IMG/VR virus record: IMGVR_UViG_2681813313_000009
Origin: a virus
Taxonomy: Duplodnaviria > Heunggongvirae > Uroviricota > Caudoviricetes
DNA length: 5,423 nucleotides
Strand: one strand, 5' to 3'
Shown here in pieces: positions 63 through 5,423 of this stretch. Below the pieces are notes generated by a model. That model was not told the origin of the DNA and did no database searches. It was given only the letters and a program-made list of their open reading frames with translations. The position numbers and the translations under genes are program-made. Every line of letters starts with the position of its first letter. The first letter of the stretch is position 1.

Positions 63-1151
63 TCACAGATAAAACACTCTCCAGGAAACCCGGGGCGGTT
101 CATTCAGAACATCCAGTAGATTTTCCGCAGGTACACGATGGGCGTTATCCAGAACCAGCACCAAGGTGGTACCCTGCTCTTTCAGGTAGGTATCAAAACT
201 CCTAAGAGCCTCAAAACCACTGGCACCGGGGAGCAAAATCCTGCGCAAACCGTCTTGGTCACGGGCTGTAAATCTAGCAGCCATCTCGCGCACCAGCGTA
301 CTGGCCAGAGCTGGACCGGGAAGATCACCGGTGTCGTAATAAGCACAAAGTGCAGTGGAGTGTAATGCGGCCTGTGCGGCCCAAGCTGTCTTGCCTGCAC
401 CTGAGAGTCCACAAAGGATACGGATCCGCTCACCAGATGTGAGAGAAGGTTCTTCGTTCTGTGGGCGGTACAGTGCTGGTGGTGCAGGAAAGTCCTGTAG
501 CTGAACGATCAACTGTTCAAATAGTTCAGTAAGTTCTTCCGTGAAAAACGTATGTTGTCCATTGGTATCGCCTCCGGTGGCGGCAAGCTGAACCAATCCT
601 GCTAACTTCCAAATCAAGGATTCTGGGGACAATAGTGAAAATTTCAGCTTTTCTGCTTCTGCGATACACCATGTGGCCGCATCAGCCAGAGTACTCCATG
701 CGGGCGGAAGTGCCGGGTGACGTCCAGCTGTCGACTGGGGCCAGACAATAAGAACATCAGAAGGAAGCTTTTTATCGTCAATCATCTTCTGAAGCAGCGG
801 TCCAGGCGCCTGGTTTACAATAATCACAAAAGAAGCCACCCCTTCGCGGTTTGCCGAAGTATGCTCATTTCTGAGCTTTACAAATCGCTCCAGAGCCCCC
901 GACACATCGTTGGGCATAATAGGTTTTGAACGGGTTTTAACCTGAATGTAGAGACGTTCCTGTTTGGATTTCAGCTCAATATCCTCATCAAGCTCGACAG
1001 TTACTGAGTCCATAGCTGCCCTCTGCGCCAAAAGTAAGCAGCCTACAGCGTAAAGATGCTGGTAAAGGAACCCCCGGTGTACCGCTTCGATACGCACCAA
1101 CTGCACAGGATCCAGTACGTCCAGATTTTGTTTGTTTTCACTTCCCCACAT
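63..1151 (-). CDS. Putative defence-type protein: N-terminal PD-(D/E)xK-like nuclease region fused to a P-loop NTPase with STAND/AAA_16-like Walker A and Walker B (possibly truncated)
   Basis: 362-codon ORF with ATG at 1151-1149, an AAGGAA Shine-Dalgarno-like sequence about 6 nt upstream, and TGA at 63-65. Walker A GLSGAGKT lies at residues 248-255 (nt 387-410). A hydrophobic strand ending in Asp, LVLVLDNAH, lies at residues 330-338 (nt 138-164), 82 aa later. The N-terminal part contains ELDEDIELK...ERLYIQVK (about nt 936-989), compatible with a (D/E)xK nuclease core, and a GFLYQHLYAV segment. The ORF ends about 27 aa after the Walker B-like motif, which is short for a complete NTPase domain. 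Confidence 0.6.
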   Translation of the reverse strand: MWGSENKQNLDVLDPVQLVRIEAVHRGFLYQHLYAVGCLLLAQRAAMDSVTVELDEDIELKSKQERLYIQVKTRSKPIMPNDVSGALERFVKLRNEHTSANREGVASFVIIVNQAPGPLLQKMIDDKKLPSDVLIVWPQSTAGRHPALPPAWSTLADAATWCIAEAEKLKFSLLSPESLIWKLAGLVQLAATGGDTNGQHTFFTEELTELFEQLIVQLQDFPAPPALYRPQNEEPSLTSGERIRILCGLSGAGKTAWAAQAALHSTALCAYYDTGDLPGPALASTLVREMAARFTARDQDGLRRILLPGASGFEALRSFDTYLKEQGTTLVLVLDNAHRVPAENLLDVLNEPPRVSWRVFYL

Positions 1152-2982: not shown

Positions 2983-3408
2983 TCAATGTACTGCCACAGC
3001 ATTTCCTGCCGGGCCACCACGGTTCATCTGATTGAAACCGGCGATTGCCACTGCGACAAAATCATCAGCGTCTCTCACCAGTCGCTCCCGCGTCTCCACC
3101 AACTCCCGAAAATAAGCTGAACTGTGGCTGCGCATTCTGGCCACCAGCAAAGGTGGCATTGCCTTTTCGATCGCTGGTAACAACGCCTGAATTTTTTCAA
3201 CTGCATCAGGGGTGTCTTTCTCTACCCAGCGGAAAATTTTCTGGGTATTGCGAGCCAGGGCTTCCGGATGGCTGTCGTCATACAGTTCAGGAAACGTCAT
3301 ACCCAACTCAAAATAAGCCTGGGTTATTCCAGCTGCTGGAACTTTTTCGCCATCAGGACGCGCCCAGGCATTCATCGCCATGCGGATGTGTTCATGCTTG
3401 ATTTTCAT
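2983..3408 (-). CDS. ydaT: YdaT-like protein (CII-analogue regulator of Rac-type prophages; historically annotated as a toxin)
   Basis: 141-aa ORF with ATG at 3408-3406 and an AGGAG Shine-Dalgarno about 8 nt upstream. It overlaps the 3' end of the upstream Cro-like gene by 17 bp. The N-terminus MKIKHEHIRMAMNAW... and the length match my recollection of the YdaT family; position immediately after a YdaS-type gene supports this. Not verified by search. Confidence 0.5.
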   Translation of the reverse strand: MKIKHEHIRMAMNAWARPDGEKVPAAGITQAYFELGMTFPELYDDSHPEALARNTQKIFRWVEKDTPDAVEKIQALLPAIEKAMPPLLVARMRSHSSAYFRELVETRERLVRDADDFVAVAIAGFNQMNRGGPAGNAVAVH

Positions 3409-3673
3409 GAATCAAGCTCCTAGTAAGTGGTTGTGTTAACGTTTTGGTATCTTCCAGCTCGGGCCAAATATTCATCCAATCAAAAGGCCTTAGTTGCTGA
3501 CGTGTAACTTCACCATTACTGGCTCGCTCAATAAGGACACATAACGATGCCCCTAACATTTGACCTTTACTCAATGCCTTTCTTAGATAACCGATGCTAG
3601 TACCACACTCACATGCAAACATACGCTGTTCATCTGACGAAAGAGAATTGAGAAATATTCTTAATTCTTCCAT
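3392..3673 (-). CDS. ydaS: YdaS-family Cro-type HTH regulator
   Basis: 93-aa ORF with ATG at 3673-3671 and an AAGGAG Shine-Dalgarno 6 nt upstream. The product contains ...CGTSIGYLRKALSKG...CVLIERASNGEVTRQQLRP..., resembling the YdaS/Cro-like family pattern (IERAT-GEV...LRP). It is transcribed divergently from a CI-like repressor gene. Confidence 0.6.
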   Translation of the reverse strand: MEELRIFLNSLSSDEQRMFACECGTSIGYLRKALSKGQMLGASLCVLIERASNGEVTRQQLRPFDWMNIWPELEDTKTLTQPLTRSLIHENQA

Positions 3674-3682
3674 AGCTACTCC

Positions 3683-3770
3683 TTAGTAAACACAGCAAAG
3701 AATACCCACAGGTAAACAAAAGTCAATACCCTTGGGTTGTTTACCTTGCGGTAATCGCATCTATTATTTA
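3683..3770. promoter_or_regulatory. Divergent promoter/operator region between the Cro-like and CI-like genes
   Basis: Repeated half-site (A/G)GTAA(A/T)C: AGTAAACA at 3685-3692, GGTAAACA at 3711-3718, inverted copy TGTTTACC at 3738-3745, and GGTAATC at 3750-3756. CAGGTAAACAA (3709-3719) and TTGTTTACCTTG (3737-3748) form an 11-12 bp inverted repeat with a 17-bp spacer. Candidate leftward promoter on the minus strand: -35 TTGACT (plus 3721-3726) and -10 TATTCT (plus 3699-3704). Candidate rightward promoter: -35 TTTACC (3740-3745), -10 TATTAT (3762-3767), placing the start at or near the ATG at 3774 (leaderless). Confidence 0.5.
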
Positions 3771-3773
3771 CCT

Positions 3774-4193
3774 ATGGACAAATATGAATTTAGACGACAA
3801 CAACTCATCAAAATTCGTGATGAGAAATGCGATGGTAAAGCGGTTAACGTGGCCAGAAAGATCGGTCGCGAGCCTTCTTATGTATCAAGAATGTTGTACC
3901 CAGAGGGGAAAAAAGGAAAAAAACGGATCGCTGATGATATGGTGGAGATTATAGAAGAGTCCTTTGGGTTACCCCGGGGATGGATGGATGGTATCGTTTC
4001 ATCATCAACGAACACAGCCTCCAATTATGAAACAAGGGTTCTAACGCCACGACAACGTATTTTTTTAGATCTCTTAGACGAACTGCCAGAAAGTGAAGCG
4101 GATAACTTATTAAAAACTCTTGAAGAGAAAAAACAGTATTACAATATGATCTACGAAGAAATCCGTAAAAAGAAAGCACAAAACGCATCATAA
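3774..4193 (+). CDS. CI-like prophage repressor (N-terminal HTH, no obvious peptidase S24 domain; RacR-like position)
   Basis: The ORF track starts at 3732 (MGCLPCGNRIYYLP...), but that extension has no RBS and is compositionally odd. The ATG at 3774 gives MDKYEFRRQQLIKIRDEKCDGKAVNVARKIGREPSYVSRM... with an HTH (AVNVARKIGREPSYVSRM) near the N-terminus. No Shine-Dalgarno, consistent with a leaderless mRNA from the adjacent TATTAT. TAA stop at 4191-4193. Divergent from the cro-like gene. Confidence 0.6.
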   Translation: MDKYEFRRQQLIKIRDEKCDGKAVNVARKIGREPSYVSRMLYPEGKKGKKRIADDMVEIIEESFGLPRGWMDGIVSSSTNTASNYETRVLTPRQRIFLDLLDELPESEADNLLKTLEEKKQYYNMIYEEIRKKKAQNAS

Positions 4194-4235
4194 CTCACCA
4201 AACAACCAGTCACCAGTTAAGACACATCAAAAAAT

Positions 4236-4275
4236 TACCCATGGGTATTTACTTTTTGGATACCCATGGGTATCC
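4236..4275. promoter_or_regulatory. Tandem perfect palindromes (12 bp and 18 bp) sharing a CCCATGGG core; candidate operator or terminator
   Basis: TACCCATGGGTA at 4237-4248 and GGATACCCATGGGTATCC at 4258-4275 are each perfectly self-complementary and are separated by about 9 bp. They lie in the 265-bp gap between the CI-like gene and the small-ORF cluster. The second is followed by TTCCTTTC. Confidence 0.45.
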
Positions 4276-4458
4276 TTCCTTTCATACCAACCCACCCCAC
4301 CCCACAGAATGCAGGGCAATACTTCGAGTTACCAGGCAGTGGTCAGGGGTTAAGTAGCCAGCCCGAGGCGTAAGAACATGACGGCAGGGTTCAACTTTAA
4401 TAACTATGCAGCAGGTTTTTGTTCCGCTACCCCGGCGTTAAGGGGAAATGAGGTCAAC

Positions 4459-4614
4459 ATGGATACTATCGATCTTGGCAACAACGAATCTCTGGTGTAC
4501 GGCGTGTTTCCCAACCAGGACGGTACGTTCACCGCGATGACGTATACCAAAAGCAAAACGTTTAAAACCGAAAATGGTGCCCGTCGCTGGCTGGAAAGAA
4601 ACTCAGGTGAGTGA
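4459..4614 (+). CDS. Small hypothetical protein (51 aa)
   Basis: The internal ATG at 4459 of the track ORF 4378..4614 is preceded by GAGGT 4-5 nt upstream. Product: MDTIDLGNNESLVYGVFPNQDGTFTAMTYTKSKTFKTENGARRWLERNSGE. The upstream extension from 4378 lacks an RBS. Position and size recall the small ydaF/ydaG-type genes beside racR in Rac, unverified. Confidence 0.5.
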   Translation: MDTIDLGNNESLVYGVFPNQDGTFTAMTYTKSKTFKTENGARRWLERNSGE

Positions 4615-4992: not shown

Positions 4993-5423
4993 TAGCTAAT
5001 CAACAAAGCTAAGGTTAGTAATTAAGGAGTTCTCCACGGGTGAGGTGGAGTGCGTGCGCCGGACACGGGTGAGCATCCGGCATTGACAGTTTACTGAAAG
5101 GATATTTCCCTGAAAAGTCAGACCATAACGCGAAAGCGCACGGCGAGGTAGCTGGTTCATAGATAGCCTGTCGTTAAATTTTCGTCGACCGTGCGCTTCC
5201 GGTTGTGGCAATCCGCGAAATGGCGCGGCGGTAAGTATGGCGGGGTTATTCCTTCCCCCGTTGAGGACACCGGGTTGTCAGGTTGACCATACGCTTAAGT
5301 GACAACCCCGCTGCAACGCCCTCTGTTATCAATTTTCTGGTGACGTTTGGCGGTATCAGTTTTACTCCGTGACTGCTCTGCCGCCCTTTTTAAAGTGAAT
5401 TTTGTGATGCGGTGAATGCGGCT
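4993..5423. other. Apparently non-coding, GC-rich region with long inverted repeats (possible regulatory site or structured RNA)
   Basis: No convincing ORF; the only track ORF here (4996..5211, minus) has Arg-rich, non-protein-like composition and no RBS. AGCGCACGG (5135-5143) pairs with CCGTGCGCT (5189-5197), a 9-bp perfect inverted repeat with a 45-bp spacer. GGGTTGTCA (5272-5280) pairs with TGACAACCC (5300-5308), 9 bp with a 19-bp spacer. A TTGACA hexamer sits at 5083-5088. Confidence 0.3.

What the first reader, a model, noticed from the sequence alone, without database searches (positions are those of the whole stretch)
4236..4275. Two perfect palindromes (12 bp and 18 bp) sharing a CCCATGGG core in the gap between the repressor and the small-ORF cluster
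An 18-bp perfectly self-complementary site (GGATACCCATGGGTATCC) is unlikely by chance, and a second shorter copy lies 9 bp upstream. The core differs from the GGTAAAC operator half-sites near the repressor, suggesting a different DNA-binding protein (possibly encoded outside this window), or a tandem-hairpin terminator/attenuator between the repressor gene and the downstream small genes. A C-rich tract (CCCACCCCACCCC, 4283-4295) follows.
Basis: seen in the sequence. Interest (0 to 1): 0.45.

Follow-up and report, generated by a model that had tools for sequence, protein, structure and literature searches.

The report
Left operators of a prophage repressor
The two palindromes are most likely the "left operator" binding sites of the prophage's own repressor, placed over the promoter of the neighbouring cell-division-inhibitor (dicB/DicF) operon. 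This is the ordinary lambda-type arrangement, here in an immunity type that has not been studied.

Summary
TACCCATGGGTA lies at 4236-4247 and again at 4261-4272; the second copy sits inside the 18-bp palindrome at 4258-4275. The interpretation that a different protein binds here is not supported.

- **Same motif at the right operator.** The shared element is TACC-N4-GGTA. It also occurs three times between the repressor and cro-like genes (3703, 3727, 3742).
- **Promoter overlap.** The pair brackets a promoter: -35 TTTACT at 4248-4253 and -10 TATCCT at 4271-4276. The whole cassette is an inverted paralogue of the PR cassette.
- **Module boundary.** Just downstream begins a leader shared by at least five immunity types. 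Each type carries its own operator motif at this position.
- **Link to the repressor.** In IMG/VR relatives of phage mEp043 CI, 36 of 36 loci with this N-terminal DNA-binding domain carry the motif at both operators. None of 44 loci with a different N-domain do.
- **What is not conserved.** The 18-bp palindrome itself is not conserved. Only the outer TACC/GGTA bases are invariant.

Verdict: OL1/OL2 plus a PL (dicBp-like) promoter, a new member of a known kind. One loose end remains. The two sites stay mutually complementary and can form a -24 kcal/mol RNA hairpin, so a secondary terminator role cannot be excluded.

The parts
4236..4247 (.). OL1: promoter-distal left operator, TACC-CATG-GGTA. 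It ends directly against the -35 hexamer of the left promoter.
   Evidence: Exact motif hit. Fixed position in 107 of 107 related loci. The outer TACC/GGTA bases are invariant and the centre is variable. Phage mEp043 has the same geometry relative to its annotated putative PL.
4261..4272 (.). OL2: promoter-proximal left operator, TACC-CATG-GGTA. It lies in the promoter spacer and overlaps the -10 hexamer by 2 bp. In this haplotype it extends to the 18-bp palindrome at 4258-4275.
   Evidence: 106 of 107 loci at +25. The outer arms of the 18-mer are not conserved.
4248..4276 (+). Predicted PL / dicBp-equivalent promoter: -35 TTTACT (4248-4253), 17-bp spacer, -10 TATCCT (4271-4276). The predicted start is near 4283-4284.
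   Evidence: Inferred. It matches 8 of 12 consensus positions, just below the scan threshold, so one search did not list it. The cassette 4232-4277 is an inverted paralogue of the PR cassette 3698-3742, which the scan did find (TTGACT-16-TATTCT) (I1/I2, 5, 41). -10 variants in relatives keep TATnnT: TATTCT, TATACT, TATCAT, TATGCT. Scan-detected promoters sit at the equivalent position in the Rac, CP-933P-type and MY504 immunity types. mEp043 has an annotated putative PL there.
3703..3714 (.). ORa: right operator TACCCACAGGTA, overlapping the -10 and spacer of the cro-ward promoter.
   Evidence: offset -533.
3727..3738 (.). ORb: right operator TACCCTTGGGTT, with one weakened half-site (GGTT). 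It abuts the -35 of the cro-ward promoter and lies just upstream of the -35 of the repressor promoter.
   Evidence: The GGTT deviation is also present at the homologous site of mEp043.
3742..3753 (.). ORc: right operator TACCTTGCGGTA, over the -35 and spacer of the repressor's own promoter.
   Evidence: offset -494. Homologous third sites lie 15 bp after ORb in mEp043 and CharmingMan.
3774..4193 (+). Gene for the 139-aa CI-type repressor. Its N-terminal domain specifies the TACC-N4-GGTA operator. Its C-terminal part resembles DicA and PaaR2.
   Evidence: phrog_5736 transcriptional regulator, E 4.7e-70. 65% identity to the N-domain of mEp043 CI. PaaR2-type similarity, E 9e-9. Match to the DicA C-terminus, E 2.5e-5, below the family cutoff.
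3392..3673 (-). Cro-like (YdaS-type) gene, the second regulator expected to use the same operators.
   Evidence: YdaS family hit. phrog_35 hit. 73% identity to the mEp043 cro-position protein.
4236..4272 (+). Potential RNA hairpin formed by OL1 pairing with OL2, followed by the tail TCCTTCCTTT. It could act as a terminator of the repressor transcript (secondary, unproven).
   Evidence: Minimum free energy -24.2 kcal/mol, z = -4.07. Listed as terminator-like. Inter-site covariation.
4286..4458 (+). Conserved 5' leader of the ydfA-ydfB-ydfC-DicF-dicB operon. It begins with the C-rich tract (4291-4303) and marks the right-hand boundary of the immunity module.
   Evidence: Alignment of five immunity types. 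Matches in thousands of E. coli genomes, including K-12 Rac.

Best explanation
The two palindromes are the left operators (OL1, OL2) of this lambdoid prophage's own immunity system.

Proposed mechanism (inferred):
- Dimers of the adjacent 139-aa CI-type repressor recognise the 12-14 bp site (A/T)TACC-N4-GGTA(A/T). The Cro-like protein probably recognises it too.
- Contact is through the outer TACC/GGTA half-sites. The central four base pairs are not read directly and can only tune affinity.
- OL1 abuts the -35 hexamer and OL2 overlaps the -10 hexamer of the leftward early promoter. This promoter is the PL or dicBp equivalent: TTTACT-17-TATCCT, with a start near 4283.
- Occupancy in the lysogen therefore blocks RNA polymerase. 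This silences the ydfA-ydfB-ydfC-DicF-dicB operon, whose products stop cell division.
- The sites are 25 bp apart centre to centre. Lambda's adjacent operators are about 24 bp apart (from memory), a spacing that allows pairwise cooperativity.
- A DicA/PaaR2-like C-terminal domain makes OL-OR looping over about 530 bp plausible.

Shown here: the motif, its positions, its conservation, its link to the repressor's N-terminal domain, and the module boundary. Not tested: protein binding, promoter activity and looping.
For: 1. All four exact TACC-N4-GGTA sites in the window lie in the two intergenic regions flanking the repressor gene. None of 200 shuffles reaches the observed count.
2. In 107 related loci (1.04 Mb) the motif sits at four fixed offsets (0, +25, -494, -533). 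Only 6 copies occur elsewhere.
3. The OL cassette 4232-4277 is a 79-84% inverted copy of the PR cassette 3698-3742. The operator-to-hexamer geometry is the same.
4. Among 71 haplotypes the outer TACC/GGTA bases and the hexamers are essentially invariant. The central 4 bp, the flanks and the arms of the 18-mer vary.
5. Four other immunity types lie upstream of the same conserved leader: Rac, CP-933P-type, MY504 and Tritos. Each carries its own motif, shared between its OR and OL. In Rac, CP-933P-type and MY504 the scan finds a promoter at the same place. A candidate was read by eye in Tritos.
6. Phages mEp043 and CharmingMan have a repressor N-domain about 65% identical and a homologous Cro. 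They carry three TACC-N4-GGTA sites at OR and two at OL, 25-26 bp apart. In mEp043 the pair sits around an annotated putative PL.
7. Natural domain swap: 36 of 36 loci with this N-domain carry the motif at OR and, where the sequence reaches that far, at OL. None of 44 loci that share only the peptidase C-domain do.
8. Experimental precedent in sister systems. PL933P with OL1-3 is regulated by PaaR2 and YdaS (PMC8630535). dicBp is repressed by DicA (PMC10448788).
Against: - No binding or transcription data exist for this immunity type.
- The promoter hexamers are weak (4/6 each) and fell below the scan threshold.
- The repressor has no Pfam hit. Its helix-turn-helix is inferred from homology only.
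- The sequences cannot say whether the CI-type protein, the Cro-type protein or both bind at OL.
- The excess complementarity between OL1 and OL2 is not needed by a simple operator model, so some additional constraint or mutational process is acting.
Confidence: 0.85

Rival explanations
1. The palindromes act at the RNA level. OL1 pairs with OL2, or the 18-mer folds on itself, to form an intrinsic terminator or attenuator. This would stop transcripts of the repressor gene from reading into the toxic dicB operon. The confidence given is for this as the primary function. As an additional property of the operator pair I put it at about 0.25.
For: - The plus-strand RNA folds into a 16-bp hairpin of -24.2 kcal/mol (z = -4.07). 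The tail is UCCUUCCUUUCAU.
- The scan lists both 4236-4272 and 4258-4275 as terminator-like.
- No other hairpin was seen by eye between the repressor stop codon (4193) and the sites.
- OL1 x OL2 pairing is kept in 98.5% of cells. Three pairs show changes on both sides, with G:U intermediates (3-7 of 500 shuffles reach this).
Against: - Two adjacent copies of a palindromic operator are complementary by construction.
- The 18-bp hairpin is not conserved. Its outer pairs are lost in 19-21 of 25 haplotypes.
- The U-tract is interrupted by C residues.
- The same excess of OL1 x OL2 complementarity is seen in the mEp043 family. There a separate terminator-like hairpin, GCCCGCAAAGCGGGCTTTTTT, lies upstream of OL (read by eye).
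- This model does not explain the three copies of the motif at OR, or the link to the repressor's N-domain.
Confidence: 0.07
2. The sites are bound by a different regulator from the one acting at the repressor/cro promoters, possibly one encoded elsewhere.
For: The perfect CCCATGGG centre is found only at the left sites in this window. Nothing else supports this reading.
Against: - The invariant part of the sites, TACC/GGTA, is shared with the OR sites.
- The CCCATGGG centre varies freely among close relatives.
- The motif co-occurs strictly with this repressor's N-domain and its Cro across unrelated phage backgrounds.
- It is essentially absent from the rest of about 1 Mb of related prophage DNA.
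Confidence: 0.03
3. The inverted pair is largely a product of mutation rather than selection. Template switching at quasi-palindromes, or gene conversion among operator copies, would keep the copies alike. The perfect 12- and 18-bp palindromes would then have no meaning beyond the operator half-sites.
For: - Operator centres appear to change in concert. ORa and ORb are both CATA in L189 and both CGCA in L053. OL2 carries the ORa-type centre in L172 and L188.
- Compensated OL1/OL2 haplotypes recur.
- The same pattern appears in the mEp043 family.
Against: - This explains only the fine structure of the centres and the extra arms. It does not explain the existence, position or conservation of the sites.
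- The shuffle statistics are not corrected for phylogeny.
- A Y-R-Y-R preference in the centre already raises the background level of pairing.
Confidence: 0.05

Closest known systems
Phage lambda OL/PL, and the two-site OL of Stx phage 933W
   Same: - Operators with the same recognition sequence lie on both sides of the repressor gene.
- The left sites overlap the -35/-10 of the leftward early promoter.
- Adjacent sites are about 24-25 bp apart.
- There are three sites at OR. There are two sites at OL, as reported for 933W, which has five natural sites in total (PMC3317979).
   Different: - The recognition sequence differs: TACC-N4-GGTA here, against 17-bp lambda sites and 15-bp 933W sites.
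- The repressor is short (139 aa) and lacks the self-cleaving peptidase domain.
- The operon under control is ydfABC-DicF-dicB, not N-cIII-red.
- OL and OR are only about 530 bp apart.
PL933P with OL1-OL3 of cryptic prophage CP-933P (PaaR2 / YdaS), PMC8630535
   Same: - Both sit upstream of the same conserved ydfA leader.
- The repressor is a distant homologue (23% identity, E 9e-9).
- The left promoter resembles the right promoter.
- Regulation of PL933P by the CI-like and Cro-like proteins has been shown experimentally.
   Different: - The operator consensus is different (GTTTAGTAA-type inverted repeats).
- A toxin-antitoxin pair lies between the repressor gene and OL.
- Three left sites are reported there, against two here.
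dicBp and its DicA operators in the Qin prophage of E. coli K-12 (PMC10448788 and the work it cites)
   Same: - The downstream operon is the same type (ydfA-ydfB-ydfC-DicF-dicB).
- The repressor is short and non-cleavable, with a related C-terminal region.
- The operators are described as overlapping the promoter.
   Different: - The immunity specificity is different.
- DicA family membership is not met: 24 bits against a cutoff of 101.
- Three operator sequences are reported for Qin.
Phage mEp043 (Aguilavirus) immunity region, GenBank NC_019706
   Same: - Same operator motif, number of sites and spacing at OR (3) and OL (2).
- Same operator-promoter geometry.
- Repressor N-domain 65% identical and Cro 73% identical.
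   Different: - The mEp043 CI has an S24 peptidase C-domain, so it is probably SOS-cleavable.
- Its PL drives an N antiterminator gene.
- A separate terminator-like hairpin and a third, split element (TTACCTG-N10-CAGGTAA) precede OL.
- I found no paper in the held library that describes its operators.
Phage 434 operators (ACAA-N6-TTGT), from memory
   Same: Conserved outer tetranucleotides are contacted by a helix-turn-helix dimer. The central bases are variable and uncontacted, and modulate affinity.
   Different: The sequence and the centre length differ (4 against 6). This is an analogy only and was not tested here.

Membership tests
Lambdoid left operator / PL promoter cassette | The same recognition motif occurs at the divergent repressor/cro promoters (OR) and at the left site (OL). 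| tested here: met
   TACC-N4-GGTA lies at 3703, 3727 (1 mismatch), 3742, 4236 and 4261. None of 200 shuffles reaches the count. The offsets are fixed in 107 loci.
Lambdoid left operator / PL promoter cassette | The operators overlap a sigma-70 promoter that reads away from the repressor gene into the early-left operon. | tested here: inconclusive
   TTTACT-17-TATCCT (4248-4276) matches 8 of 12 consensus positions and was below the scan threshold. Support for it:
- The cassette is an inverted paralogue of the scan-detected PR cassette.
- TATnnT is kept in variant haplotypes.
- The geometry is identical to the annotated putative PL of mEp043.
- Scan-detected promoters sit at the same position in three other immunity types.
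The transcription start has not been mapped.
Lambdoid left operator / PL promoter cassette | The operator sequence is specific to the immunity type and co-inherited with the repressor's DNA-binding domain and Cro. | tested here: met
   36 of 36 loci with this N-domain carry the motif; 0 of 44 with other N-domains do. The Cro homologues are co-inherited. Four other immunity types have their own motifs at the same place.
Lambdoid left operator / PL promoter cassette | The repressor and/or Cro physically bind the sites and repress the promoter. | not testable with these tools
   This needs EMSA or footprinting and reporter assays. There is experimental precedent only in sister systems (PMC8630535, PMC10448788).
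Rho-independent (intrinsic) terminator | A stable G+C-containing stem-loop in the transcript. | tested here: met
   A 16-bp stem of -24.2 kcal/mol, z = -4.07.
Rho-independent (intrinsic) terminator | An uninterrupted U-rich tract immediately 3' of the stem. | tested here: inconclusive
   The tail is UCCUUCCUUU. It passes the lenient scan (5 T in 8) but is interrupted by C residues. Most relatives have UCCUUCUUUU.
Rho-independent (intrinsic) terminator | The structure is conserved through compensatory change for reasons other than protein binding. | tested here: inconclusive
   The OL1 x OL2 helix shows 3 pairs with changes on both sides. The same excess occurs in the mEp043 family, which has its own upstream terminator-like hairpin. 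The 18-mer hairpin is not conserved.
DicA subfamily repressor (NCBIfam NF007257) | A whole-protein score above the curated cutoff. | tested here: not met
   24.1 bits against a cutoff of 101. Only residues 84-136 match the C-terminal part of the model.

The most novel reading that the evidence does not exclude
OL1 and OL2 are kept as exact inverted copies of each other even when neither is itself a palindrome. Examples are centres CATA/TATG, CACG/CGTG and TATG/CATA here, and TACA/TGTA in the mEp043 family.

This suggests a constraint beyond independent dimer binding. One possibility is that the operator pair doubles as the terminator hairpin that insulates the toxic dicB operon from repressor-gene read-through. 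Another is that a two-fold symmetric repressor tetramer requires mirror-image sites. A third is that operator copies evolve in concert by templated mutation.
Probability: 0.25. Interest if true: 0.45.

Novelty: new member of a known kind. Interest (0 to 1): 0.2.

Why it matters
- It assigns the operator sequence, (A/T)TACC-N4-GGTA(A/T), and the left promoter for an uncharacterised immunity type. About 800 complete E. coli genomes carry this immunity region.
- It shows which switch keeps the DicB/DicF cell-division inhibitors silent in these strains.
- It provides a clean natural domain-swap case. The operator follows the repressor's N-terminal domain whether the C-terminal domain is a LexA-like peptidase or a DicA/PaaR2-like oligomerisation region.
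- This is useful for annotating prophage immunity groups and predicting cross-immunity. It does not change current understanding of lambdoid switches.

Tried and rejected
- **Rfam.** The gathering-threshold search found only DicF. The permissive search over 4190-4470 gave only spurious microRNA-hairpin matches to the palindrome pair.
- **Pfam.** No hit for the repressor, even at E = 1.
- **Solved structures.** The PDB sequence search gave only insignificant winged-helix matches, E >= 0.075.
- **Sequenced phages.** No phage in the INPHARED collection carries this immunity region at the DNA level. Phage Tritos matched the window's flanks but has a different immunity type with its own AGTACA-type motif.
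- **Fourth OR site.** I rejected 3769-3780 (TACCTATGGACA) because it has two half-site mismatches and has no counterpart in mEp043 or CharmingMan.
- **Within-site symmetry.** I tested palindromic symmetry of the centres as the conserved feature. It does worse than shuffles.
- **RacR.** No detectable similarity to this repressor.
- **Not run.** I skipped the large protein-homologue searches and structure prediction. The comparative evidence already identified the binding protein.

Full report
**What the window is.** The window is the immunity and early region of a lambdoid prophage of E. coli. It is 100% identical over 3600-4500 to a prophage in strain Z1323HEC0108, next to tRNA-Ser/mtfA.

The genes, from right to left on the minus strand, are:
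- a Cro-like YdaS-family gene (3392-3673);
- a YdaT/CII-like gene (2983-3408);
- a replication-organiser-like gene (1841-2917);
- a DUF977 remnant;
- the start of a large nuclease-ATPase gene.

On the plus strand are a 139-aa repressor gene (3774-4193), then ydfA (DUF1391), ydfB, ydfC and the DicF small RNA at 5335-5386. In the full prophage dicB follows. This is the Qin/Rac-type layout: cro and repressor are divergent, and the repressor points toward the early-left operon that carries the cell-division inhibitors.

**Checking the observation.** TACCCATGGGTA is at 4236-4247. GGATACCCATGGGTATCC is at 4258-4275. The 13-mer TACCCATGGGTAT is repeated exactly, 25 bp start to start.

The gap between the two palindromes is 10 bp, not 9. 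The C-rich tract is at 4291-4303, not 4283-4295. An 18-bp perfect palindrome arises in 2.35% of randomised windows, and a 12-bp one is expected by chance. Taken alone the palindromes are only mildly unusual. The meaningful signal is the motif they share with other sites.

**The motif is shared with the right operator.** A mismatch search with the 12-mer also found 3703 (TACCCACAGGTA) and 3727 (TACCCTTGGGTT) in the repressor/cro intergenic region. Reducing the pattern to TACC-N4-GGTA adds 3742 (TACCTTGCGGTA). It gives 6 hits at 1 mismatch or fewer, against 1.13 expected, and none of 200 shuffles reaches 6. All four exact hits lie in the two intergenic regions that flank the repressor gene.

In 107 related loci (1.04 Mb) the exact motif occupies four fixed offsets: OL1, OL2 at +25, ORc at -494 and ORa at -533. 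Only six copies occur anywhere else.

**Promoter context.** The scan finds two promoters in the OR region:
- a cro-ward promoter, TTGACT-16-TATTCT on the minus strand at 3726-3699;
- a repressor promoter, TTTACC-16-TATTAT at 3740-3767. Its -10 puts the start at the A of the ATG at 3774, giving a leaderless mRNA, as reported for lambda cI and paaR2 (PMC8630535).

ORa overlaps the cro promoter's -10 by 2 bp. ORb abuts its -35. ORc covers the repressor promoter's -35. This mirrors lambda OR1, OR2 and OR3.

The left region 4232-4277 is a 79-84% inverted copy of 3698-3742 (I1/I2). It has -35 TTTACT (4248-4253), a 17-bp spacer and -10 TATCCT (4271-4276). OL1 abuts the -35 and OL2 overlaps the -10 by 2 bp, exactly as at the cro promoter.

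This promoter matches 8 of 12 consensus positions and so was missed by the scan. It remains an inference. In related haplotypes the -10 appears as TATTCT, TATACT, TATCAT or TATGCT, always keeping TATnnT.

**Module boundary and other immunity types.** BLAST against 5,426 complete E. coli genomes shows about 820 genomes with the whole 3600-4500 region. Thousands match only from about 4283 onward.

I aligned five immunity types: this one, K-12 Rac, the CP-933P (PaaR2-PaaA2-ParE2) type, MY504 and phage Tritos. Homology begins at about 4286 (ACCAACCCACCCC...), and the sequence upstream of that point cannot be aligned.

In each of the other types the unalignable stretch carries a motif that is also present in that type's own repressor/cro intergenic region:
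- TAGGC...GCCTA in Rac;
- TTTAGT...ACTAAA in the CP-933P type;
- ATCAAAAC in MY504;
- AGTACA in Tritos.

In Rac, the CP-933P type and MY504 the scan also finds a sigma-70 promoter whose -10 ends a few bases before the shared leader. In Tritos I read a candidate by eye.

For the CP-933P type this promoter is the experimentally studied PL933P with OL1-3, regulated by PaaR2 and YdaS (PMC8630535). For Qin it is dicBp, repressed 22-fold by DicA (PMC10448788). The palindromes sit at the position of OL/PL in this family of prophages.

**Link to the repressor protein.**
- The repressor has no Pfam hit. It belongs to a PHROG of transcriptional regulators.
- It is distantly related to the PaaR2-type repressor (E 9e-9).
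- Its residues 84-136 resemble the DicA C-terminus, below the family cutoff.
- Its first 86 residues are 65% identical to the N-terminal domain of the CI repressor of phage mEp043. That protein otherwise carries an S24 peptidase domain.
- The Cro-like protein is 73% identical to the protein at the mEp043 cro position and 49% identical to that of phage CharmingMan.

Both phages have three TACC-N4-GGTA sites at OR, spaced 25 and 15 bp apart (24 and 15 here). The middle site of mEp043 has the same GGTT deviation. Both have two sites at OL, 25-26 bp apart. In mEp043 the OL pair brackets the annotated putative PL in the same geometry, and that promoter drives an N gene.

Among 80 IMG/VR relatives of mEp043 CI, 36 have the MDKYE...REPSYVSRMLYPEGK N-domain. 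All 36 carry the motif at OR, and every one whose sequence reaches OL carries the 25-bp pair there. None of the 44 that share only the C-terminal domain carry the motif at these positions. This natural domain swap ties the motif to the repressor's N-domain, and to the co-inherited Cro. It rules out an unrelated regulator for practical purposes.

**What is and is not conserved.**
- Across 71 haplotypes of this immunity type the repressor coding sequence is nearly invariant (mean column entropy 0.02).
- The outer TACC/GGTA bases, the -35 hexamer and the TATnnT of the -10 are essentially invariant.
- The central four bases of every operator copy are among the most variable positions.
- The extra GG/CC arms that create the 18-bp palindrome are present in only a minority of haplotypes.

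This is the pattern expected for a dimeric helix-turn-helix protein that reads the outer half-sites and leaves the centre uncontacted. From memory, the phage 434 operators behave this way.

**The hairpin question.** Because the two sites are copies of a palindrome, the plus-strand RNA can fold into a 16-bp hairpin. Its energy is -24.2 kcal/mol (z = -4.07), and a T-rich but C-interrupted tail follows. I saw no other hairpin between the repressor stop codon and OL.

The centres of OL1 and OL2 tend to stay complementary to each other rather than each staying palindromic. Compensated states occur alongside their single-step intermediates: CATA/TATG, CACG/CGTG and TATG/CATA. On 25 haplotypes, 3 pairs show changes on both sides and 98.5% of cells pair; 3-7 of 500 shuffles reach these values. 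Within-site symmetry does worse than shuffles.

The same excess appears in the mEp043 family. There a terminator-like hairpin with a T run lies upstream of OL (read by eye). The shuffle tests are not phylogeny-corrected, and the centres follow a Y-R-Y-R bias that raises background pairing.

Operator centres also seem to change in concert at OR. That fits templated mutation or gene conversion among the copies. I therefore treat a terminator role as an unproven secondary property (about 0.25) and not as the explanation of the sites.

**Conclusion.** The palindromes are OL1 and OL2 of this prophage's own CI/Cro-type switch, overlapping the PL (dicBp-equivalent) promoter of the ydfABC-DicF-dicB operon. 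Confidence is about 0.85.

This is a new member of a well-known kind. The operator sequence and this immunity type appear not to have been described: one search found no paper on the mEp043 operators, and one search found no sequenced phage with this region. The architecture is textbook lambdoid. It has direct experimental precedent in CP-933P and Qin.

Noticed in passing
window 3398-3415: TTGATTTTCATGAATCAA is a perfect TTGATT-N6-AATCAA inverted repeat spanning the start codon of the YdaT/CII-like gene. It matches the published YdaT box of CP-933P and Rac (PMC9986795, PMC11879457). By analogy it is where the CII-like protein would activate a reverse promoter toward the repressor gene.
   Followed up: partly
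window 4286-4458 (C-rich tract at 4291-4303): A leader of about 170 nt is conserved in thousands of E. coli genomes and in at least five immunity types. This includes K-12 Rac, where different genes follow it. It has no Rfam match and folds no better than shuffles (z = +1.4). The ATG at 4378 opens a reading frame that is not kept in Rac. A C-rich, unstructured 5' end could be a Rho-loading site, but its function is unknown.
   Followed up: partly
window 3774-4193: The repressor looks like a domain chimera. Residues 1-86 resemble the N-domain of the SOS-cleavable CI of phage mEp043. Residues 84-136 resemble the C-terminus of the non-cleavable DicA/PaaR2 repressors. Induction would then need an antirepressor rather than RecA-mediated cleavage.
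   Followed up: partly
window 3703-3753 and 4236-4272; loci L053, L189, L172, L188, L003, L047, L066: The central 4 bp of all five operator copies are hypervariable among otherwise near-identical prophages, and they seem to change in concert. ORa and ORb are both CATA or both CGCA in some loci. OL2 takes the ORa-type centre in others. OL1 and OL2 remain inverted copies of each other.
   Followed up: partly
window 3762-3776: The predicted -10 of the repressor promoter (TATTAT, 3762-3767) places the transcription start on the A of the ATG at 3774. The repressor mRNA would therefore be leaderless, as for lambda cI and paaR2.
   Followed up: no
window 63-1151 minus strand (full gene in L001 754-3552): This is the N-terminal part of a 932-aa protein. 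It has a Cap4/LmuA-like nuclease domain, an AAA ATPase domain and a C-terminal SEC-C motif. It sits next to a frameshifted DUF977 gene in the replication region. It is a candidate phage-defence gene carried by the prophage.
   Followed up: partly
L207 about 2850-2880 and L209-L244 (mEp043 family): Upstream of OL1 these phages have a conserved TTACCTG-N10-CAGGTAA element. It consists of the same half-sites set one extra helical turn apart. The window has no counterpart. It may be a third, split left operator.
   Followed up: no
window 5335-5386: A DicF antisense small RNA (Rfam RF00039, 76.7 bits) lies downstream of ydfC. This confirms that the operon under the left promoter is a dicBF-type operon.
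   Followed up: yes
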